From Syncephalis fuscata S228 (taxonomy: Eukaryota; Fungi; Zoopagomycota): DNA of 64,000 nucleotides. The stretch spans positions 1 through 64,000 of the forward strand of contig JAHLTZ010000054.1 of NCBI GenBank assembly GCA_025786725.1, given 5' to 3'. The translations under genes and the position numbers were made by a program. The notes beneath the pieces were generated by a model. The model was not told the DNA's origin. It saw only the letters and a list, made by a program, of their open reading frames with translations, and made no database searches. This document shows positions 321-47,945 of the stretch, in pieces (the first letter of the stretch is position 1; each line of letters starts with the position of its first letter).

Positions 321-1559
321 AGAGGAGAAGAAGACTAAGGACGAAGAAGAGGCGGAAGGAGAGTATTAGGAAGAGTGTGACAGTGGTAAAAAACGACCAA
401 GTTTAAAAGAAAAGTCAGAAACGATGATATTGCCAGCATTGGTGGGAATGAGCGTCAAGTCCTTCTGGCCCTGAAACGACCAATGTTGTGACGATAATGT
501 AATAGCTGAGCTATTACAACGAACTTGGAAGTTTCGGCCTTTTAATAATAGCGTTAATAATAATAACGATAATACCTGTAGTATTATTAATAACTATAAC
601 AAGAATAAAGTAACAACAATAGCAACAACAATAAAAATAACAACAATAGAACTAGTATTGATAATAACAAGTAACAGTTATATTAGTGCAAATGCTATAA
701 TTAATACAAATTACAGGCGCACCACACACACAAAGAGAAAGATGTGCACGCGTAAAGACCACATGTTCGCACATTTTAGTAATGTCTTCTATGATGGATA
801 TGGACATGCACACGATTCTAAAAGTAGAGAGGATCAAAAATGGTAGAGCCTTAGTTAACTAGTTCTATTGCTGTGAAAAAGGTTCGATGAACTGAGCCAA
901 GGAAGCGTTGATAATAGCAACGCTTGATAGACTGGTTTGAATAAGCAAGGTGCTAGCAACAAATGGCTGTTTTTTAACATTGCTGCCATTTAGTATAAGG
1001 CTGCCAAGGCGACTTGTAGTTTATTCGTGCCAAAAGTGGAATGAGTATTGCATGGACATACCGTGCAGGTGCATATGAATGAGTGAACAATAAGACTATG
1101 ATAGTTATGGATATACATTGTTTGAATATTAAACAATAAGTTTAGTTAACGTATCTTTATATATACCAGTAATTGAATTGTGCTTTGACTTTTACATTTT
1201 GAGTTATTAAAATAAAATTCACTTTAATAAAAGTCATGCGGCTATGCACAACATAGTTATATTAGTTTCTATTAAAATATTGTTAATAAATTGGTTTAAA
1301 TAAACAATGTAACATACTATTTGATTTTATTGAAACATTTGAGGTTGATTATTGTTGTTGGCTATGTGTAGAAAGATTGATTAAATATTAATAGAAGCCA
1401 TATAATTGCAACTCCATGTCATTCCGCATTTGCTGTTATTGCATCTATATACAACATGGATTTTTATGTCTAAATGGTCTCTTCTATTTTTTAATATTCT
1501 AGTATTGCATTTTGGGCATATTGTGCTGTAAGATCAATATTAATATAGTTATTATAAGT

Positions 1560-3075: not shown

Positions 3076-4118
3076 TGTGCAAGAACACTAGTAATAGCTT
3101 AAATGTAGCAGTAATAGCAACAGTAAAGAAAGAACGTGGGAAGCAAGCAATCAGACAGGTACACTACTCGTTACGTCACCTAAGCTTGTTACTAGATTGA
3201 TAGTTTCAAATTCAATAGTTTTTAATCAAGAAGCTACCATACTTTGACTCTCTAGCTTCAAACTGGGACAAAAAATCCATAACTTGAACAATAAATCGTT
3301 AGTCAGTTTTTACTACTGAAAAGTGGTATTTGTTGAAGCAGTGTCATATCAACTTCGATTGAATTAATCGGAGTTGAATTAATCAGTACTACTTTCAATA
3401 TCGAAATGGATATGAAATAGTATTTTCATGTCACTTACAATGAAATGTTACATTTGATTACGATATTGATGCAACAGCAGAATATTGGAAAATAAAAGAG
3501 GCCATTTAGACGCAAGAAAACCACACTGTACGTAGTAAAAACAATAACAACAGTGGAACAATATGGAAGCATAATCATATGGCTTTTATTAATATTTAAT
3601 CAATCTTTCTACGCATGGTCAACAACAACAATAATTGGCCTTGTGGATTGCATAGTCAAATGAGCATTATAACTATGTTTGCTGTGCATAACAGTACAAA
3701 TTGAATTGAAACAAAATTTGCTTTGAAGGCTCCAAATGTGGGAGTCAAAGTACAACTTAACCATAATAAAATCTAGATTACGTAAATGTTAATAATAATA
3801 ATAAGTAGATCGATCGTTAGTAAATTCTTTGTAAATCAGTGTGTTCATGTATAGTATTTATTATTAATGTGTTCTAATACTACTTATTAATTGGCTAATA
3901 AAAATAGTGAAATTCAATTATTAAACTGATGGGAATGATGATGGTGGATATCAATTTGCAGTCACATCAAGATCTGTATTAGTTTGATCATCATTTGATA
4001 GCAAATAAAAGGAGCGTATTTGATATGGGATGGACCGGGGCAGTTGGCCACGTCTTTCTGCTATCCCACGGCTGTTATAGCGTATATTTACTGGTTTTTC
4101 TATTGACAGACTACTACT

Positions 4119-14534: not shown

Positions 14535-14965
14535 TATGCCATTATTATTCAGTATGCATATGTTCACTACTCGCCTATTCACCTATATCATTTACACTGT
14601 AGACTCATATTATACCATATCACTCTATGATATATTAGTCACATTTTATTTGTTATATATAGCAATACGCTTTATTTATTGGATTATACACATGTTATAG
14701 CTTCGGCTTATTATTTGTACAATCCCTAGTATATATTAAATATACTGTATATTATTCTGGCATATAATAATTACACAGTATTCAAACTAATTTTATTTGG
14801 CACTAGTTTTATTGATTATAAATCCCAGTTTATATGGGTATACAATGGGAATGACATAAATAGAGAATAAATGCATATCGAATAATAAATCTATGATGAT
14901 AAGTATTTGATGATTGCTATCACTCACCATTCATCATTATGTTCAATACATTTATTTAGCTATTA
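14535..14965 (-). mobile_element. Degenerate foldback/MITE-like non-autonomous element, copy A
   Basis: Internal inverted arms (attattattcagtatgcata ~14542 versus atgcatatcgaataataaat ~14871). Reverse complement resembles 20700-20800 and 47520-47900. Confidence 0.6.
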
Positions 14966-15132: not shown

Positions 15133-17476
15133 TTAGTATACACGTCTGCAACGCCGAATTGGTCGCTGATTGTTTATGTCACGTTCGACTATACTGGTAC
15201 ACGTCAGATGTTTATGTTTATGAATCGGCATAGTGGCCATCTTTCGATTCTGCTGTGCATCTGCTTCTTCTAAATGATGTTGCTCTATACAGTTGGATGC
15301 TTGAACTGATGGTGCTGTTTTGTTTATAGAATGATTGTTTGTATCACGTCGCTTGGCTTCTTTGTCTATTAACAATAATAATATTTAGTATGTGTTATTT
15401 GTATTTATATGCCTAATTACCTATATTTGACGCTCGTGTCTTTTTATTAGACACTGCTTTGTCATTAATCTTGACTGCATTATCTGCCTTTCTTTTCTTG
15501 CTTTCGTTACTAGTGTTTGATGCTGCTTTAGCAATAATCTTTGCCTTCTTTTTGCCTTCTTTGCTGCTGTTTGGCGCCATCTCATTCATAGCCTCCAGCT
15601 CTCTTTTACCTCTTCCTTTGCTAGTCGTTGACAAATGCATCTGTTTATTATGCAATGCTTCTAGCATTTCTTTTATTGCAGTCAATTGTTCTCGGTGACC
15701 TTTTTCCATAGCATCTATCTTGTGATTTAGCGCCTCGTTATGTTGCTTCAGTGTATCGTTGTCTTTTTTCAATACAGCAGTGTCTTGTTTCAATTGCTTA
15801 AACATATCAAATAAATCTGACATAAAAACCTCGTTCTCATTTCCCTGTCTGACAGATGCAACTGGTTGCTGAGCGTTTAATTTCCCTTTGTTAGTTACTG
15901 CCATTGATGCCGCTGCTTCCAGTTCACTTTGTTCCGATCGCATTGTTGACAGCAGCCTGAAAGCCTCTTTTGTACCAAATCGTTCATATGGGCTTGTTCT
16001 GGTCAGCATATCGATCATTGTATACATGTTTGGGCATATATTAGAATACTATGAACATTACAGGTTATTAGTAAAGCATGGCTAATTTCAGCTGCAGTAT
16101 GATCTTACTTTAAGCGTTTCTTCTATTGTCTTTCCAACAGAATACATATCCAAAGCAGTGGTGACATAATCCTTGTATTCTGGGGCCATGTATCCTTCAG
16201 TGCCGCCAGTAATCCCGTTAGCATTGGCATCAGCATACTCATCAGGTATCTGTGCATCTTCGGTGACATAAACCGATCCAAAATCGATTAACTTGACATC
16301 GTTGGTTTCTTTGTTAATTCGTACATTTTCAGGCTTAATATCGCCATGAATAATACCGATATTATGTAGTGCCTCAACAGCCTATTATAATATTAGCAAG
16401 ATATCTAACCATCCATCGCTGCCAGCATACCTTTATCAAACTTTCAACATACGTGATTTGCTCAGCAGCGTTATATTTGTAGTGCGTCTTTGCTTCGACG
16501 TAATCGGTTACCATGGCTGGCATATGAAGTAAAGTAAATCGCTGCTGAAATGCTGGTAGATACTTTGCAACATTTGGTACAGTACATAAATACTGGTACA
16601 ATGCAATTTCCCGCTTTCCAGCATCAATATTGGAAAATGCTTTAATAACACCCAGTGGCTTTCGCTCAGAATCAATTATTCGAATGACCCATGCACCACT
16701 ACCTTTTACCTAATCATATATATAATATTAGTAATTATGGTATATAACTGCACTATGCTTAATCCCAACTTACAGAACTTCCAGTTCTTTCAGGTCTTTG
16801 TTCAATCATAAACCAATTTTCTTCCAAAGTTATACCACTCAAATCTAATGCAACTTGAACACAGAAACTATTTTCGCCTGCAATTCTATGTGCTTTATAA
16901 ATAAATATGTAAGTTAATGAAACAATACTTATTATGCTTATAATACTTACCACGTATACGCTTAATGTCTTGAATTGCCGTACTTAGAGATTCCAACCTG
17001 TTGCGCTTATATAATGTAAGCAAATTCCGTGCCCAATGATGTGTCCATAGTTCTTTTTGAGTATACGCGTATTCACGATCTTCTTGGCTAACTCTGGCTG
17101 TTCCAACAGGACAACAATTGCATTCACAGCTGCCTCTTGTAATTTCTTATAAAGTTGCTTCAGTTCTTCCTTCAGCTTTTCAAAAGACTTTAAGCGATTC
17201 ACATTATCTGGCTCTTGTTTAGTCAGCTGCCTTATTCTTTCATAACATCTACTTTTGATTTCAATAACACCCTTAGGTACGTATATTGTCTCATCGTATT
17301 TTTCTATCCAGTCTGCGCCTTCTGCAACTTCTAAAGTCATGACTGAAATGATAACAAGCTGAATAAGCCTGAGAAACAAGGTAAGTTACAGAAAGCAATG
17401 AGACAAGTAAAGGTAAAGAAAAGAAGTATACGTCAGTTGATGGCTGTTTATATTCATTTGTAGACATTTGACACAT
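15133..17476 (-). CDS. Lineage-specific Ser/Thr protein kinase with N-terminal helical region and C-terminal coiled coil and basic tail
   Basis: GVIKAF, REIALY, IIHGDIKPENVRI, KLIDFG, GTEGYMAPE, DMYSVG in spliced exons. ORF 15133-15375 splices in as the last exon. One frameshift in an A-run at ~17055. Start codon uncertain. Confidence 0.85.
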
Positions 17477-20619: not shown

Positions 20620-21620
20620 ATGTCATTTGACATTACAAACGGTTTATTAACACTTGATATGATTTAATAGTCAAATGACTAACATTAATAACATCCAATC
20701 TATTGAGCATGATGATGGGTGGTGAATGACATCAATCATCAAATACTCATTATTGTAAATTCATTATCCAGTATGCATATATTATCGCAGTATGTGTTAT
20801 TACTATATATATCCGTTACTTTGCTTGATTAACATTAAAATCATAACTAATTGACATGGCCTAATTTATTTATAAATAATCTTAATAAACATTGCTTTAT
20901 TCATATTCATATTATTTGTTTTATCAATATAACTCAGTGAACAAACTAAGTACAATATGTCAATTTTATTAATAAAAAAGTTGGAACCATACTGACAACG
21001 GCTATAGACAGCTTATAGTCAATGTATAATAAAATGATAAACATTATAATGGATACGCAATATTGAACGAGATTAGCTATGTCAAAGTTATTAAGAATAT
21101 ATGCATGATCAATGAGCGGAATTAGTCGACATTTGTTAATAATAAAGCTAAACCAAAAATAAAAGCAGCATTGGATAGAGAAAGGCTAGTTGAGTATATA
21201 ATGATATATGTGATGATGTGACGATTAAATAAAACTCACCACTTGTCCTCATGTTCAATAGATTGAATGTGTAGTTCAATTACACGAATGTTATTAAATG
21301 TAGTCATTTGACCCTCAAATTATAATAAAGCATTAATAAATTGTTTAATATACAAAAAAATAGTTATTTTTATTTAATTAATAAATAATGTAATATATAC
21401 AATCCATAAATCGAGTGGCATTGTATATAAAAAGACTATGAACAAATTGAATATAGATGAGGGAATTGTTTAAGTGGTGGAATAAAATAAAAAATAAAAT
21501 TAATAGCATAAAAGCAAATATAATTATAGAATATGCCATCAGTAAAACGATAAGTACAATAAGAAGAATAGATAACAAACAATAAAGACAAATATATTTA
21601 TAGAACAATGTCATCAGTAA
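20620..21620 (+). mobile_element. Degenerate foldback/MITE-like element, copy B
   Basis: Forward arm 20641-20800 and reverse arm 21235-21350 are inverted copies. 21300-21620 is a direct repeat of 32785-33080. Confidence 0.7.
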
Positions 21621-22327
21621 ATAAGAAGGATGAATATCAATGCATAAACAAGTGTCATTATCATAGAACATGATATTATCATTGACAGCTAAACTTTTAA
21701 GCATTAAATTCAGTATATAAGCAACAGTGTTTATTGAATGTTAAATAAAATACTTGTAGACATACCTATTCTAAACTACGCCTTGTATATATAATTAAAT
21801 AGTGATCCGCTAAGCGAAAAAAGAAAAACGGTTAACAAAAAATAGTATAAATGGTCATACCCAACACACCACCTGGGTAAAATAAATGTTTAAAATAGCA
21901 GTTGCTAATACAATGTTCTGTTACAATTAATCAATTTTATTTTATGAAAATAATAATAAACAATATTATTACGTTAATATTTACTGTGAATGATGATTTA
22001 AACACAATTTAATCTAATTAACGCATTAAAATTAATTGCGTAAAAAGATTTACTGCGTTGAATTAGGGGGGGGGGATTAAGGTAAATGTCAATCCATTCT
22101 TTCTATTGAACATAAGCCTGGGTGTTGAGTAAAGTAAAGATCAAAATAATAGCAATAGTAAATACTAATCAAACGCGTGTTATTATTTTGGGGAAAGGGG
22201 AAACATAAAATGATCAACGTCATTGTTATTAAATAAGATGTTAGTATTTTATTGCTTTAATCACTTTTTGCTCTTCATTTGCTATTGGCTTAACTTGTTT
22301 CCATTGCACGTAGATAATTTATACACA

Positions 22328-28328: not shown

Positions 28329-29245
28329 ATGAGCCAACCAGATCTTGCCCGTACAGAGAATGGCCATTACAGCAATGGCAGCGAGACAACTGAAAATGGT
28401 CAGTCCATAAACAAACACACCAAGGAACAGCCACCGGTGCCAGCCATTCCGCATATTAACTCTCATCCGATCAACCGGGTTGACTCGCCTATCGAGATTG
28501 ATGGACTAAGCTGGCCCAGTAAGTATACTACTACTATTTTACAGTTATACAATATGCCTAATGTGCCGTCAATTTAGGTATTGGTACTCGACAGCGTCGC
28601 AGTGAGGCAGCCTCTGAAAATCAAGAGCGCATGCAGAAGCTTTCTGGAGCCGTACGCACTCTTCTTGAATGCATCGGTGAAGATCCAGACCGCGAAGGTC
28701 TGTTGCGTACGCCAGAACGTTATGCCAAGGCTTTAATGTTTCTGACCAAGGGATACGAACAGAATATTAAAGAAGTCGTTAATGACGCTATCTTTAACGA
28801 GGATCACCGTGAAATGGTACTGGTGAAAGATATTGATATATTTGCGCTATGTGAACATCATATGGTGCCATTCTACGGCAAAATTCATATTGCATACATT
28901 CCTAATAATCGAGTGGTCGGCCTCAGCAAGCTAGCACGTATTGCGGAAATGTTTGGCCGTCGTTTGCAAGTACAAGAACGCATGACTAAGCAAATTGCAT
29001 CAACGCTGTTTGAGTTGTTGCAGCCTCAAGGTGTTGCTGTTGTTATGGAAGCAACGTAAGTAGCTATTTACTGTATACATTTAATGTAGATAATTAACTA
29101 TTTATACCCATTTATTAGACATATGTGTATGGTAATGCGTGGTGTACAGAAGCCTGGCAGCAAGACAGTCACAAGCTGTATGTTAGGCGCTTTTCTTGAT
29201 AATCCTAAAACTCGAGAGGAATTTTTATCGCTTATTAAGAATTAG
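28329..29245 (+). CDS. FOL2: GTP cyclohydrolase I
   Basis: [60 protein letters not shown]. Confidence 0.98.
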
Positions 29246-30450
29246 CTTTTATAATGTAATACAAATGGTTTGCTTTTATACACCTTATGACTATTTATTG
29301 TTCTTAATTGAATTGGAAAGCGTGCCAGAATGACGCGTGGATGTTGGGCAAAATCATGCCATAACCAGACATGGCAGCCTAGCTTCTCAAGTAGTGTTTT
29401 TATAGGTGCTACTTGGTGTGCACCACCAATTTCCATGACTAACTGAGGAATAGGCTCGACCGATTGTTGTTGTTTAGATGGATCTACGCGTGATGATGAT
29501 GATGCAGATATAGTATCGTTACGTAATAGCTGCGGTGCAAGTTGAATAATTAAAGAGTAAAATGAAATGGCTAATGAATCAATTGGTGCAATAGTCGTTT
29601 TTAATGGCGATGGAACTAAAGCATCTCGATCTTCCCAATCGCGTACTTCTGGAGCAAGATCTGAATATTCGGTCTGTGTAATGTAAGGAGGATTTGAAAC
29701 AATAATATCGTATCCAGGTCCAGTTGTAACCTCTTCTTTACTCGGTATTATTAGCTGTTGTAATTGTGTAGCTGTATTTGTATTTCGTAAATCTAATTGT
29801 GTAAATGTTATTTGATTATTACGTAACAATGAGTGGTGCAGATCGTAGTTTTGACGGGCTAGCTCAATAGCTATAGATGATTTATCAACACCTATTAATT
29901 CACTGCTCTGTACTGGCAAACTACTGGCCAATCCCAGAGCAATACAGCCTGTGCCTGTACATAAATCAAGGATACGTAATGGTTTTCTATTATAGTTACT
30001 AGAAGATGTCGAGTGTTGTCCTAGACGCTTGGATAACATGGTGGCCAGACGATCGGTCCATTCTTCGGTCTCTGGACTGAATTATCAACATTAATACTAA
30101 ATAATAAATTTGCTATTTGCTATTTACCGCGGAATTAGAATAGGTGGTTGCACGCGTAATTCAAGATTAAGGAATGGCTGTGTACCAAGAATATATTGAA
30201 GTGGTTTACGTAGAACAATACGGTCGTATAATAAATGGCGCATTCGTTTTAGCACTACGCGTGGTGAACTAGTAGGACACTGAACCGAAGCAATTCGCGT
30301 TGTTGCTTTTGCATGTTGTTGTAGCCAACGCCATTCAGAGCGTGCCGTATGCTGATCGCCACAAACCGTTTGTAGTCGGCCCAGCAAACGACGTGCACTG
30401 TCCCGTTGAACGATGGACACAGTAGCGCGACGTAGAACAAGGCGTGGCAT
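29242..30450 (-). CDS. MTQ1: HemK/PrmC-type release-factor glutamine methyltransferase (mitochondrial)
   Basis: [41 protein letters not shown]. Confidence 0.9.
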
Positions 30451-30841
30451 GAATATCAATAGAAAATGCAAGACAATAAAGTTATAATCTATTTTATTTT
30501 ATTTTATTTAGTATTTTTTATTTATAACAAAAATCACTAATGACTTAGTTCTGTGTTTAATGTATTTATGATGCCTTTATAGTGCAATCATTTGATGAAT
30601 TAACAGTAGTAATTATGATACGTATTCAGTTGTTGTATTTTAGGACCGCAAACCATGTAATATTAAATATATCGCACTGTTTACAGAAGTTAAAGATAGT
30701 AACAAAATAAAAATAAGCTGGATATCTAATGTAACTGCTCATAATCCCAAAAGCATTACTTTTTATATAAAACTTATGTTTGGCATCAGCCATTTAACTA
30801 CGCACCATTTATTCAAATATATTTTGGTTGTTATAAATAAT

Positions 30842-32086
30842 TTATTTTATATTAACAAATCCCAGTAAAGCCATGACCTCATTTGAAATTGCACAGTCAT
30901 CATAATTGCTTGAAGATAGCAATGTCATGGCTTTTAAAAGAGGATATAATGATTTAATATGTCCCCAATTTTCAAACTTTAGTTGCTTCACCGTAAAGCG
31001 GAACCCACGACTGCGCATTTTAGCAAATTCACTCTTGATTATATTGTAAAGATCATCTTGGTCTAGTTTTATGTTTAGTTTTATACTATCTTTTCCAGTG
31101 ATTGCATAATAGATTAAATGGCTAAATCTGTAATCATCCGCCCAACAGCTTGAGCCAGATTTAAACGGTCCATTGAATTTTTTTGGTTGGGATAAAGCCA
31201 AGTTTACAACCTCATCGACACTTTGATACATAAACTTGACAACATCGTAATCAACAATGGTTACCAAAACCTTGTTGGTTTTTGGATTAGTATCGACAAC
31301 AATATCTAAAAGCAAATAGTTAGTATGTTGTCATCAAACGTCATACAGCTTACTTCTGCCAGCTACGTCACTGTGTATAATACCAACATGGCGTAAATAC
31401 AGCATACCTATATTTGATTATAGCCATCCATACTTTATTATTCAAATAGAATAAAAACTTACCTTGCATCAATTGATAGAATATCTGGGGCAAGTATTCA
31501 GCCTTTTCATGCAATGTTTTATCGCCAATAAAATTGTAGAATAGTTCGCCTGGTGCAAACGTGTAAATAAAGCAGCTGGCCTGTTTTATCCCAAAAATAT
31601 TCTTAATATTAAACCGCTTTAACGGTTTTATGATATTATTTTCTCCTGGAATATCCAGCTTATTGTTAACTCTGGCTAGTATCTAAATAATATATAAGTG
31701 GCCTGGTACTTTTAGTATAAATTACGCACTTACATCAAAAGCTTTGGTCTCAATTTTAGTTGTACGGCCATTTTTTACGCATTTAATAAAAGCATTGATT
31801 CCATTCCATTTTGTAGAACCAACACTTATTAATTTAGCTGCTGCTCTCCATTTAACTGGCGCTGTCAATCCATGCTTTTTTCGTGTTTCTGGATTATCTA
31901 AATAAATCTTCCCAACTCCATTAGGCATGATGCCAGCTATCAAACGTGTAGTGTGTTAACATTGATAATTACTATGCCCTATAGCTTACTGTTAGAGGCA
32001 CCATTTAAAGCATTGCATGTCGGTATAGTAGATAATAATATGGTTGTACAAACAGTGACAACAGTAAATATACCAGCCTTAATCAT
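30842..32086 (-). CDS. Secreted divergent protein kinase-like protein
   Basis: Exon 1 MIKAGIFTVVTVCTTILLSTIPTCNA (signal-peptide-like); later AFIKCV, IETKAF, QIFYQLMQGMLYLRHVGIIHSDVAGRNIVV, VTIVDYD. Confidence 0.8.
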
Positions 32087-32668
32087 ATTAAAAGCGGTAT
32101 TTTGCTGTTTGTGTTTCGTTTGAAGTAGTAAAAAAAATAGAGAAGTTTATAGAACCTTGAGGATAACCATTAGCGCTGTAGAGTTTATAGCCAACTGAAT
32201 AAAAATAATTTCAACTCAATTGGCTTTGGTCCACGTTGGATATTTCACTGATAAAGAACATAAATAGTAAATTAAAAGCATTGGTGTTGCTTTTTAAACT
32301 TAAACTGCTATTAAACGCAATACAACATGACGATTTAACCAAAATAAAACAATAATGCATCAATTGGGCATTTCCATTTTTGTTTACACCAACAACCCAT
32401 TCGATGTGTGTAGCCATGATAGTTTAAAAACTGGTGCGTTACTTATTTTTTGCACTTGTGCTAAAACTTCTATATTATGTCTAGAAAGAGCTATTTACTT
32501 TGAGTTTATACTTTTTATTTTCAAAAAAATATGGACCCAAACTCCACTTCAGTCAAATTCAATGCAAGTATTATAAAATACCAACAAGCTTTACTATATG
32601 TTATTTAAGATTAGTGTAATGTTAACAATATGTTTATTATTCTACTCCGAGTAGAATAGTTTGGTGGC

Positions 32669-33080
32669 CAAATAACTATATTTAATAAAATCCAATTTAT
32701 TGAACATGATGATGGACGGTGAATAACATTAATAATCAAAATACTTATTATCATAGATTTATTATCATAGATTATTATCAGGTTTAGTCATTTGACTATT
32801 AAATCACATTAAATTATTAATGATTTGTTTAATGTTTGCAAAAGAATGCTTATCATTATTTAATTAATAAATGAGATAATATGCAAGCCATAAATTGAAT
32901 GGCATTATACATATAGAAACTATGAATATATTGAAATACAAATGGAAGAATTGTTCAAATGGTGGGATAGAATAAACAGAAAACAATAAAGTAATTTATA
33001 GAACAATGTTATCAGTAAATCAATAAGCGTAATAAGAAGTATAGATAACAAACAATAGATACAAGCATAGTTATAGAACA
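32669..33080. mobile_element. Degenerate foldback/MITE-like element, copy C (internally deleted)
   Basis: Forward arm tccaatttattgaacatgatgatggacggtgaat directly abuts reverse arm tagtcatttgactattaaatcac; the right part repeats 21300-21620. Confidence 0.7.
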
Positions 33081-33290: not shown

Positions 33291-34928
33291 ATGACTACCA
33301 ATATGGAGACTGTGGAGACGCCACTCGAGACGGGCAGTCCACTCGAGGCCGCCGTCAAGATAGGCGAGGTGGATCGCAGTCGCCGAGAGGCTGTCTATGT
33401 ATTTGAATTTACGGTAAGGAAAATCAAATACGGTCCTAGACCGATAGAAGACGGTCATTCGACGTTGATAGCCAAGCAGTACCTAACGGAATTTGCTATG
33501 TTTATACGGATGCGACGTCTTTAGACCAATTTACGGCAGTATAAGGAGTTGTCGTATAACAATGTTCGCCGAGAATACAGCGAGTTTGCCCGGCTATACC
33601 AGCACTTAGTGGCCGCCTATCCCGGCTGTATAACGCCGACTCTGCCCTCGCCTCGGTCAAGCGCGACCGATAGCGATTGGAACGACAAAGAAATGTGCGC
33701 GGTGCTTGAGCTATTTCTTAGCCGTATTGTCGTGCATCCACTACTTTCCAAAGATGTTTTGTTGCAGCAATTCATCGAACAGGAGGCAACGGTAAGCACA
33801 ATGACCAATATCACTTTATATTACGTCATACTTTGTAGCAGTACTAACACACGTTGCTAATTCACAGTTTTCGCCGCCAGTAACTATGCAGGAGGTGCGA
33901 CGACGTCCAAATAAGCTATTTAGCAATTTAAAGGCTCGAGTGGCGGCCTTTAGTCCATCGCCGGCAACGCCTATTAAAACAAAGCAACTTCCTAGTGCCG
34001 ATGACCCACTTTATGACAAATTACAGAAGCAAGCAACTGGCACTGAGAAAGACATGTCGATGGGCAGTCGTGCTGTTGAGAAAATGGCTCAAATGCGAAG
34101 GGGGCTAGTTGTAGCTCATGTGGATGTGGCCTCCAAAACAGTGCATCTAGGCGGTGCCGAGTCTGATCCACTTTTAGCCAAGTGAGTAGGCAATAATGAC
34201 ATAGAATAATATTATTAATGGTGTCATTTATACAGCGGTTTAAGAAAACTTGGTAAATGTTTGCAAGAAATCGGCGATATACACCAGACACAAGTAAATA
34301 AGCACAATATTTATTAGACATTTAGCTATATCTTTTTTCTTAGGCGGATGTCGAAGCAGTTGTATTAGGCGACTTTCTTAATCATCAAATGCACGATGCA
34401 CACTGTATTTATGTAAGCTACTGTTCTTGGCATTCAGCTGTGCTTATTTGTCAATATAGGAAGTACTGGATAATCGGAAACAGTTATTTGAAGATCACTC
34501 AGTTGCGGTAGATCGGGTAGAGAAACGAAAACAAACGGTACAGCAACTCAAATCATCTGTAAATGTACGACAGGAGCGTGTAAACGATTCAGTGGCCGAA
34601 TTGGAAGAAGTAAGCTGTGTAGTCATATGGCCATTGCTGCCGTGAAGTTGAAGCAATCATTTAACACTTATTGACTATTTAGGCCGAACGTTATGAGCAG
34701 TTTGTCGAGCAGCAGTGTCGACGTGTAACAGAACAGCTACGACAAGAACTGGCACTGCATCAAAAGCACGCTCTAGACGATACACACAGGAGATTTCGTA
34801 GATATGCCAATGAACAGTTACGTCTGGAACGACAAATGCTGCATTCGCTACAGGATTTGGAGCCTGATATTCAGGCTATGTTTGAGCCTCTTGGATCACC
34901 GACAAGGCAGCCTGCCAGTCCGGCTTAG
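33291..34928 (+). CDS. PX-BAR sorting nexin, Vps17/SNX5-6-like retromer subunit
   Basis: TNLRQYKELSYNNVRREYSEFARLYQHL...PTLP, RIVVHPLLSKD..LQQFIE (PX), followed by a helical BAR region. Confidence 0.85.
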
Positions 34929-47459: not shown

Positions 47460-47945
47460 AAATTAATATTAAACATTTTACTAACAATTCGATGTGATTT
47501 AAGTGTCAAATGACTAAATTTAATAACATCCAATTTATTGAACATGATGATAAATGGTAAATAACATCAAAGTTTAAAATACACATCATTGTAGATCTAT
47601 TATCCAATATATATATATGTATTATTTTATGATATACTAAACACATTTTATTTTGATATGCTGCAAGTATGTATAGTTTGATTAATAAAACAAGCAAATT
47701 TATAAATAATATAGAATAAAATAGATATGCAATGTCAAAGCCATAGTCCAATATGACGCAATGAGTGGAAAAAGTAAGATGCGTTGATTTATATAAAAAA
47801 GTGATGTATCTAGTATGTCATAAAATGGTATTTACTAGTATGGATAGTATGGAAATGATATAAGCGATTAAGGATATATACATATTGGATAATAAATCAA
47901 GGTGTAATAATGTTAAATGACATAGTAACCGTTTTTATAATAGTA
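47460..47945 (+). mobile_element. Degenerate foldback/MITE-like element, copy D
   Basis: gtcaaatgactaaatttaataacatccaatttattgaacatgatgat arm; partial inverted arm catattggataataaatc at ~47881; interior matches the reverse complement of 14540-14690. Confidence 0.7.

What the first reader, a model, noticed from the sequence alone, without database searches (positions are those of the whole stretch)
30842..32086. Secreted kinase-like protein with a tyrosine-kinase-style catalytic loop (HSDVAGRN)
Seen: a signal-peptide exon, conserved beta3 Lys (AFIK) and alphaC Glu, catalytic loop HSDVAGRN split by an intron (~31354), DFG replaced by DYD, and no Gly-rich loop. Known: Ser/Thr kinases carry HRDxKxxN, whereas tyrosine kinases carry HRDLAARN; classical tyrosine kinases are absent from yeasts and most Dikarya. 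Secreted kinases serve as host-directed effectors in other parasites (apicomplexan ROP/FIKK). Inference: a candidate effector delivered to a host, possibly with convergent Tyr specificity or a pseudokinase role. It sits in an AT-rich island next to repeat copy C.
Basis: partly seen in the sequence, partly recalled or inferred. Interest (0 to 1): 0.7.

Follow-up and report, generated by a model that had tools for sequence, protein, structure and literature searches.

The report
Secreted kinase family of fungus-parasitising fungi
This intact gene encodes a predicted secreted kinase from a large, fast-diverging family that we found only in fungi that parasitise other fungi; it likely acts on the host fungus, and its tyrosine-kinase-like motif is likely a coincidence of a highly variable loop.

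Summary
The gene is real. It has five exons (minus strand, 32086-30842) and encodes 345 aa with a signal-peptide-like N-terminus. A spliced contig confirms the intron that creates HSDVAGRN. A public record named Syncephalis fuscata is identical from Met36 on but lacks exon 1.

It is not a tyrosine kinase. It nests in a 63-member family whose basal members have Ser/Thr hallmarks (HxDIKPxN, GTxxYxxPE, DxW). Grouping it with tyrosine-kinase-like domains is rejected (AU p 5e-6). The TK P+1 motif is absent (0 of 61), and the 'Arg' position is hypervariable (Arg 8 of 62, seven changes on the tree).

The larger finding is the family. All 32 named members are Syncephalis or Thamnocephalis mycoparasites, and 41 of 44 N-complete members have a signal-like peptide. 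A derived clade of 33, including this gene, keeps the catalytic K/E/H/D/N/D. It has lost the catalytic-loop Lys, the APE motif and the subdomain-XI Arg, and has gained a Cys pair (candidate disulfide). Best reading: a likely active, non-canonical secreted kinase aimed at the host, analogous to Toxoplasma rhoptry kinases. Secretion, activity and host delivery are untested.

The parts
31990..32086 (-). Exon 1: start codon and predicted signal peptide (Met1-Ala26, 32086-32009; candidate cleavage after C-N-A)
   Evidence: hydropathy 2.22; homologous N-termini in P0002-P0004; missing from public model P0001; not covered by run X1; SignalP not available
31937..31989 (-). Intron 1, 53 nt, GTAAG...TAG, phase 1
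   Evidence: inferred from frame and paralogues, not bridged by contigs
31734..31936 (-). Exon 2: N-terminal helices, Gly-free beta1-beta2 hairpin, beta3 Lys84 (31784-31782), Cys85, alphaC Glu95 (31751-31749)
31683..31733 (-). Intron 2, 51 nt, phase 0
   Evidence: same in P0001; 13-letter loose end in X1 matches exon 2
31463..31682 (-). Exon 3: beta4-beta5 (Cys137 at 31574-31572), hinge, alphaD, alphaE
31408..31462 (-). Intron 3, 55 nt, phase 1
   Evidence: same in P0001; not bridged for this gene in X1
31354..31407 (-). Exon 4: end of alphaE (Arg179 at the Ser/Thr-kinase His position) and catalytic loop H-S-D-V-A-G-R (31375-31355) plus the first base of Asn192
31306..31353 (-). Intron 4, 48 nt, splits the catalytic-loop Asn codon; contains in-frame stops
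   Evidence: Spliced out in one contig of run X1; same in P0001; only one acceptor candidate nearby
30842..31305 (-). Exon 5: DYD (31252-31244), remodelled activation segment without APE, Cys245 (31147-31145), alphaF to alphaI, Cys329 (30895-30893) in place of the subdomain-XI Arg, stop
32656..33080 (.). Degenerate dispersed AT-rich repeat upstream of the gene; no evidence that it belongs to the gene's function
   Evidence: 75-83% matches at 21274-21622, 20654-20768, 14882-14952 and 47465-47604; frames full of stops

Best explanation
This is an intact, spliced five-exon gene for a protein-kinase-fold protein with a predicted cleavable signal peptide, one of dozens of related kinases in Syncephalis and Thamnocephalis mycoparasites, and it likely is secreted and likely phosphorylates targets of the host fungus by a non-canonical substrate-docking mode. 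SHOWN: the gene, its splicing at the catalytic loop, the kinase fold, descent from Ser/Thr-type family members, retention of Lys84, Glu95, His185, Asp187, Asn192 and Asp210, and loss of the Gly-rich loop, the HRD Arg, the catalytic-loop Lys, the APE/P+1 loop and the subdomain-XI Arg. INFERRED: (1) The signal peptide sends it through the ER. Two co-conserved Cys pairs (85/137 on beta3/beta5; 245/329) would form disulfides there, the second replacing the lost APE-Glu/Arg salt bridge. (2) As a non-RD kinase it would need no activation-loop phosphorylation. (3) It would bind Mg-ATP and transfer phosphate using the retained residues, and would recognise a folded protein or non-peptide substrate rather than a linear peptide. 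(4) It would be released at the parasite-host interface. The A-G-R-N loop is one state of a loop that became free to vary once the Lys was lost; it is not inherited from tyrosine kinases.
For: Gene and splice. Fold: AF2 pLDDT 88.3, pTM 0.88; best structural matches are protein kinases, Sky1p Z 18.4, rmsd 4.0, 263 aligned, and CHK2. Family: 98 phmmer hits, 63 aligned; family one clade, SH-aLRT 96; derived 33-clade 96; closest 8-clade 99. Of 33 members looked up, 32 are named: S. fuscata 20, S. plumigaleata 9, S. pseudoplumigaleata 1, Thamnocephalis 2; one is unnamed. Signal-like N-terminus in 41 of 44 N-complete members vs 1 of 37 non-family hits; no internal TM stretch and no KDEL/HDEL in 63. 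Catalytic residues in the 33-clade: Lys 26 of 27, Glu 27 of 27, His 30 of 33, Asp 30 of 33, Asn 30 of 33, DFG-Asp 29 of 31. Basal vs derived: loop Lys 24 of 30 vs 2 of 33; xPE 26 of 30 vs 0 of 31; subdomain-XI Arg 28 of 28 vs 0, with Cys in 18 of 23. The C-lobe Cys pair co-occurs 17/2/1/4 in 24 scorable derived rows, Fisher p 0.0065. Cys85 in 50 of 51 and Cys137 in 61 of 61. Analogy: the expanded secreted ROPK family with a C-lobe disulfide (PMC3682881, passages).
Against: No secretion, activity or localisation data. The signal peptide is from a home-made hydropathy rule and not SignalP, so a signal anchor is not excluded. Exon 1 is not in the public model and not covered by X1. Loss of the Gly loop, the loop Lys and the APE together could cripple catalysis, and at least three clade members (P0013, P0014, P0024) have lost the catalytic Asp. 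The Cys co-occurrence is not independent of phylogeny: only 1 independent pair on supported branches, sign test p 1. Cys-Cys distances could not be measured, because the model's coordinates are not returned. Disulfides would be reduced in host cytosol, and free ATP outside cells is scarce (general knowledge). 30 of 63 family rows were not looked up for organism. The family rows were picked by me from the hit list using motifs and N-termini (after).
Confidence: 0.55

Rival explanations
1. Secreted pseudokinase or nucleotide-binding scaffold (ROP5-like): the fold is used to bind and block host proteins without phosphotransfer.
For: No GxGxxG (0 of 27), loop Lys lost, APE lost (0 of 31), DFG changed to DYD, alphaF Trp lost. 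A related subclade has lost the catalytic Asp outright (P0013, P0014, P0024).
Against: Both catalytic Asp residues plus Lys, Glu, His and Asn stay about 90% conserved in the 33-clade at mostly 20-50% overall identity. By the criterion in PMC3682881 this is not a pseudokinase.
Confidence: 0.2
2. A secretory-pathway or cell-surface kinase acting on the parasite's own secreted proteins, wall or small molecules (working like Fam20C, VLK or CotH; names recalled), not on the host.
For: Candidate disulfides and a signal peptide suit an oxidising lumen or extracellular space. Loss of the peptide-binding P+1 loop with retained catalytic core resembles atypical and small-molecule kinases (general knowledge). 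Weak Kdo and APH Pfam hits in 13 and 9 of 63 members.
Against: Dozens of fast-diverging paralogues restricted to biotrophic mycoparasites fit host interaction better than housekeeping. No TM anchor or ER-retention signal. Structural neighbours are protein kinases.
Confidence: 0.15
3. Convergent tyrosine (or dual-specificity) kinase: in the closest subclade the basic residue moved from D+2 to N-1, as in HRDLAARN, and contacts a substrate Tyr hydroxyl.
For: A-x-[R/K]-N in 7 of the 8 closest paralogues; Ala at D+2 in 7 of 8. In PTKs the AAR Arg hydrogen-bonds the Tyr hydroxyl (PMC4771162). A mussel JAK-like domain carries the same AGRN ending. PF07714 scores slightly above PF00069, 40 vs 37.3 bits. 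Loss of the Ser/Thr P+1 loop removes a barrier (inference).
Against: Arg only 3 of 8, Lys 4, Glu 1. The PTK activation-loop Trp motif is absent in 0 of 61 rows, and PMC4771162 says activation-loop residues are needed together with AAR. The alphaE position is Arg, not the PTK Ala/Ser/Glu. Arg at N-1 is scattered, 8 of 62 with 7 changes, including KPRN, HPRN, TPRN and an Asp-less AGRN. Common ancestry with TK-like domains is rejected: AU p 4.65e-6 for the 8-clade and 8.6e-5 for the 33-clade. PF07714 covers Ser/Thr kinases too.
Confidence: 0.1

Closest known systems
Toxoplasma/coccidian rhoptry kinases (ROPK family)
   Same: Lineage-restricted, expanded, fast-diverging family of signal-peptide-bearing ePK-fold proteins in a biotrophic parasite; mix of predicted active and dead members; co-conserved Cys pair in the C-lobe (PMC3682881, passages).
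   Different: Works-like comparison only. No ROPK was among the listed top PDB sequence or fold matches. The Cys pair sits elsewhere (before alphaF and at subdomain XI, vs end of alphaF and the alphaG-alphaH insert). Delivery to a host is shown for ROPKs, untested here.
Eukaryotic Ser/Thr protein kinases (CAMK-type CHK2 and DAPK1; CMGC Sky1/SRPK as best fold match)
   Same: Best PDB sequence match is CHK2, E 3.4e-6. The family profile's best match is DAPK1, E 1e-25. Basal family members keep HxDIKPxN, G[TS]xxYxxPE, DxW and the subdomain-XI Arg.
   Different: Signal peptide; non-RD; DFG replaced by DFD/DYD; no Gly-rich loop. In this protein also no loop Lys, no APE and no subdomain-XI Arg. TM-scores only about 0.5-0.6.
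Protein tyrosine kinases (HRDLAARN)
   Same: Ala at D+2 and Arg at N-1 in the catalytic loop.
   Different: No HRD Arg, no DFG, no P+1 Trp motif, wrong alphaE residue, and separate ancestry.
Expanded host-exposed kinase families of microsporidia
   Same: Two microsporidian species have expanded kinase families among predicted host-exposed proteins (PMC5423893, passages), a precedent among fungal relatives.
   Different: Different lineage and hosts; sequence relationship not tested.
Fungal protein kinase FunK1 (PF17667)
   Same: Fungal, lineage-expanded, divergent kinases; 27 of 63 family members hit the profile weakly.
   Different: This protein scores 11.1 bits against a cut-off of 24.1.

Membership tests
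Protein tyrosine kinase (PTK) | AAR-type catalytic loop (HRDLAARN/HRDLRAAN) | tested here: inconclusive
   HSDVAGRN has Ala and Arg but no HRD Arg; the position is hypervariable in the family
Protein tyrosine kinase (PTK) | PTK activation/P+1 loop with conserved Trp (PxxW-type; motif pattern recalled, role from PMC4771162) | tested here: not met
   0 of 61 family rows, this protein included
Protein tyrosine kinase (PTK) | alphaE Ser/Thr-kinase His replaced by Ala, Ser or Glu (PMC4771162) | tested here: not met
   Arg179 here and in 8 of 8 closest paralogues; His in 23 of 30 basal members
Protein tyrosine kinase (PTK) | Phylogenetic placement with PTK domains | tested here: not met
   AU p 4.65e-6 and 8.6e-5. 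The 8 TK-like domains came from 5 hit proteins chosen by loop motif: one named JAK-like, one shark hypothetical protein, one labelled Ser/Thr kinase by its source, two not looked up
Protein tyrosine kinase (PTK) | Phosphorylates Tyr | not testable with these tools
   Needs an enzyme assay
Eukaryotic protein kinase (ePK) fold superfamily | Bilobal kinase fold | tested here: met
   AF2 pLDDT 88.3; Z 18.4 to Sky1p; Pfam above cut-off
Eukaryotic protein kinase (ePK) fold superfamily | beta3 Lys, alphaC Glu, catalytic Asp and Asn, Mg-binding Asp | tested here: met
   K84, E95, D187, N192, D210
Canonical Ser/Thr ePK | GxGxxG loop; HRDxKxxN Lys; APE motif with subdomain-XI Arg | tested here: not met
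   All absent in this protein; Lys, APE and Arg are present in most basal relatives
Canonical Ser/Thr ePK | alphaF DxW Asp | tested here: inconclusive
   Asp248 aligns there, but the Trp is lost and Asp is only 14 of 30 in the derived clade
Pseudokinase (criterion of PMC3682881) | Lacks the HRD Asp or the DFG Asp | tested here: not met
   Both present
Secreted parasite effector kinases (ROPK/FIKK-like, by analogy) | Signal peptide | tested here: inconclusive
   Hydropathy rule positive here and in 41 of 44 N-complete members vs 1 of 37 controls; SignalP not available
Secreted parasite effector kinases (ROPK/FIKK-like, by analogy) | Lineage-restricted expansion in a parasite | tested here: met
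   32 of 33 looked-up members are Syncephalis or Thamnocephalis; at least 20 in S. fuscata
Secreted parasite effector kinases (ROPK/FIKK-like, by analogy) | Delivery into or onto the host and action on host targets | not testable with these tools
   No localisation or infection data
FunK1 / Pkinase_fungal (PF17667) | Pfam gathering score | tested here: not met
   11.1 vs 24.1 bits

The most novel reading that the evidence does not exclude
Zoopagales mycoparasites independently evolved a rhoptry-kinase-like arsenal of dozens of secreted kinases delivered to host fungi. One branch rebuilt its substrate-binding lobe: it swapped the near-universal APE-Glu/Arg salt bridge for a disulfide and freed the catalytic loop. 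That let paralogues explore new specificities, including Tyr or non-protein substrates in the A-x-R/K-N subclade.
Probability: 0.3. Interest if true: 0.8.

Novelty: new variant of a known kind. Interest (0 to 1): 0.52.

Why it matters
Almost nothing is known about how biotrophic mycoparasites control a living fungal host. A large family of secreted kinases gives concrete, testable effector candidates and would be a fungus-on-fungus parallel to apicomplexan ROPK/FIKK. For kinase specialists, the derived clade is a natural experiment: the catalytic residues are kept, while the APE-Arg salt bridge, P+1 loop and catalytic-loop Lys are lost together and a Cys pair appears. Practically, the public model of this gene lacks its signal-peptide exon, and 19 of 63 family records are N-terminally short or gapped at beta3, so secretome counts probably miss members. 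The tyrosine-kinase claim by itself is weak.

Tried and rejected
Whole-genome paralogue count: no genome held, so family counts are lower bounds from a library clustered at 50% identity.

Pfam on single exons found nothing (0 families for 4 of 4 exon frames); the joined public protein was needed. The word-indexed search with the family profile added no new family members (11 hits). The metagenome locus scan could not run on the divergent alignment.

No RNA holder is on record. X1 is a guessed RNA run, its contig depths cannot rank expression, and its lack of cover over exon 1 and most of exon 2 is no evidence.

Viral origin: giant-virus kinases top the viral fold search and the Atlas feature search with homologue P0014. 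Identities are 11-18% and E-values are like those of cellular kinases, so no donor is claimed.

Phylogenetically independent co-variation of the C-lobe Cys pair was not shown. GTAAG enrichment is not significant. A role for the upstream repeat was considered; no conserved frame or link was found. A complex prediction was not run, since no partner is known. Three look-ups in earlier scan findings returned nothing.

Rows left out: 36 of the 99 proteins then held were not put in alignment A2. Of these, P0056, P0067 and P0075 score like family members and were also left out of the control set; 11 rows were skipped in the Cys count for gaps or short C-termini.

Full report
OBSERVATION. The minus strand holds a five-exon gene, 32086 to 30842, with four short GTAAG...AG introns (53, 51, 55, 48 nt) that give one open frame of 345 aa. 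A database protein, P0001, named by its source as a Syncephalis fuscata hypothetical protein, is identical over residues 36-345 but starts at the internal Met36. One contig of run X1 (RNA by guess) skips exactly 31306-31353, and a loose end matches the exon 3/exon 2 junction. So the loop is made by real splicing, on the evidence of one low-depth contig. Exon 1 is not covered, but paralogues P0002-P0004 begin with a homologous peptide. The gene sits singly between a HemK-like methyltransferase and GTP cyclohydrolase I on one side and a PX-domain gene on the other. It is only modestly AT-richer than these neighbours.

FOLD. P0001 passes the Pfam cut-offs for PF07714 and PF00069. AlphaFold2 with a 63-row alignment gives pLDDT 88.3 and pTM 0.88 with a bilobal kinase topology. 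Structural neighbours are protein kinases of many groups with no single close match: Sky1p Z 18.4, PIM1 Z 17.4; CHK2, JNK1, JAK2 and others at similar E-values.

FAMILY. phmmer over 1.84 billion representatives gave 98 hits. I aligned 63 proteins (62 of these hits plus P0002) that looked like family members by motif or N-terminus. Of 33 looked up, 32 carry names, all from Zoopagales mycoparasites: S. fuscata 20, S. plumigaleata 9, S. pseudoplumigaleata 1, Thamnocephalis sphaerospora 2. One (P0060) is unnamed, has odd composition and may not belong. That these genera are biotrophic mycoparasites is stated in PMC6784888 (passages). A hydropathy rule finds a signal-like N-terminus in 41 of 44 N-complete members against 1 of 37 non-family hits, with no internal TM stretch and no ER-retention signal. 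In a tree with 20 outgroup domains the family is one clade (SH-aLRT 96, quick search).

TWO TIERS. Thirty basal members look like non-RD Ser/Thr kinases: loop Lys 24 of 30, xPE 26 of 30, DxW 27 of 30, subdomain-XI Arg 28 of 28, alphaE His 23 of 30, DFD in place of DFG. The family profile's best PDB match is DAPK1. A nested clade of 33 (support 96; all 21 named members are Syncephalis) contains this gene. It keeps Lys (26 of 27), Glu (27 of 27), His, Asp and Asn (30 of 33 each) and the Mg-binding Asp (29 of 31). It has lost the loop Lys (2 of 33), the APE (0 of 31) and mostly the alphaF Trp (3 of 31). The subdomain-XI Arg, which in canonical kinases pairs with the APE Glu (general knowledge), becomes Cys in 18 of 23 rows, and a new Cys appears just before alphaF in 24 of 29. 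The two co-occur (17 both, 4 neither, 3 mismatched of 24; Fisher p 0.0065), but this is not shown to be independent of phylogeny. A second pair, Cys85 on beta3 and Cys137 on beta5, is nearly invariant family-wide (50 of 51; 61 of 61). From recalled kinase topology these would be cross-strand neighbours. Both disulfides are inferred, not measured.

THE TYROSINE QUESTION. PMC4771162 (passages) says the AAR Arg acts together with PTK-conserved activation-loop residues, and that PTKs replace the alphaE His with Ala, Ser or Glu. Here the PTK-type P+1 motif is absent from 61 of 61 rows, and the alphaE residue is Arg. Trees forcing the 8 closest paralogues, or the 33-clade, together with TK-like domains are rejected (p 4.65e-6 and 8.6e-5; the groups were named after seeing the tree, and branches are long). 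Arg at N-1 is found in 8 of 62 rows and needs 7 changes. It also occurs in KPRN, HPRN, TPRN, NERN and in P0014, which lacks the catalytic Asp. In the derived clade the three middle loop positions carry 3.2-3.4 bits of entropy. Lys (4) is as common as Arg (3). Convergent Tyr activity is not excluded, but I put it near 10%. PMC4342544 (passages) supports the premise that metazoan-type TKs are absent from fungi.

MECHANISM. Most likely: ER entry by a cleavable signal, disulfide-stabilised folding, release at the host interface, then constitutive Mg-ATP-dependent phosphotransfer onto host targets recognised without the canonical peptide groove (confidence 0.55). Rivals: pseudokinase scaffold 0.2; kinase of the parasite's own secretory pathway or surface 0.15; convergent Tyr kinase 0.1. 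Secretion, catalysis and host delivery are all inferred.

WHAT IS KNOWN. It works like the coccidian ROPK family as described in PMC3682881 (passages) but is not a member of it. PMC5423893 (passages) notes expanded kinase families among predicted host-exposed proteins of two microsporidia. I found no description of this family in ten library searches (listings and abstract starts). Term searches in main texts also found none: PMC13188720, on mycoparasite effectors, has 0 occurrences of 'kinase'; PMC9391592, on zygomycete secretomes, has 0 'kinase' in the listing and 0 'Syncephalis'. PMC10386755, PMC10079182, PMC6784888, PMC6733946 and preprint 10.1101/2023.12.22.573025 showed only unrelated passages. 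PMC7586955 (passages) was read for motif definitions. Supplements were not opened and could list these proteins, and subscription papers on Zoopagales genomes are outside the library.

VERDICT. The real interest is an apparently undescribed, mycoparasite-restricted family of secreted kinases with a remodelled substrate-binding lobe. New variant of a known kind; interest 0.52.

Noticed in passing
window 31990-32086 vs public protein P0001: The public gene model omits the signal-peptide exon and starts at Met36. 19 of 63 family records are N-terminally short or gapped at beta3, so the secreted fraction is probably undercounted.
   Followed up: partly
window 31374-31408, run X1 record 3: A 568-letter contig matches exon 4 with 3 differences. 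Its loose ends, translated by eye, read as paralogue P0003, so that paralogue appears to be transcribed and spliced too.
   Followed up: partly
protein P0004: Its model has five extra residues inside the catalytic loop at the same intron position, resembling a read-through of the donor; probably a gene-model error.
   Followed up: no
proteins P0013, P0014, P0024: A supported subclade (99) that has lost the catalytic Asp: predicted pseudokinases; the two named ones come from two Syncephalis species.
   Followed up: partly
window 32656-33080, 21274-21622, 20654-20795, 14854-14952, 47465-47604: Degenerate dispersed AT-rich repeat, 75-83% alike, both orientations, no intact frame. Long X1 contigs match part of it, so it likely occurs elsewhere in the genome.
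   Followed up: partly
window about 15416-17400, minus strand: Another kinase gene with a non-RD loop (HGDIKPEN), DFG and an APE, followed by a coiled-coil-like tail; 41.6 bits on the family profile, membership not tested.
   Followed up: no
window 29245-30498 (-), 28565-29245 (+), 33525-33857 (+): Neighbours: HemK/PrmC-like methyltransferase, GTP cyclohydrolase I and a PX-domain protein; introns 29056-29118 and 30077-30127 are skipped in X1 contigs.
   Followed up: partly
window 1348-1463 and 3517-3632: 116-nt inverted repeat, 74% complementary, 2053 nt apart; could be a decayed transposon end pair.
   Followed up: no
protein P0060: Unnamed JGI/Logan protein with HNDIKSQN and DFD, sister to the rest of the family, with odd composition; the family's origin is unresolved.
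   Followed up: no
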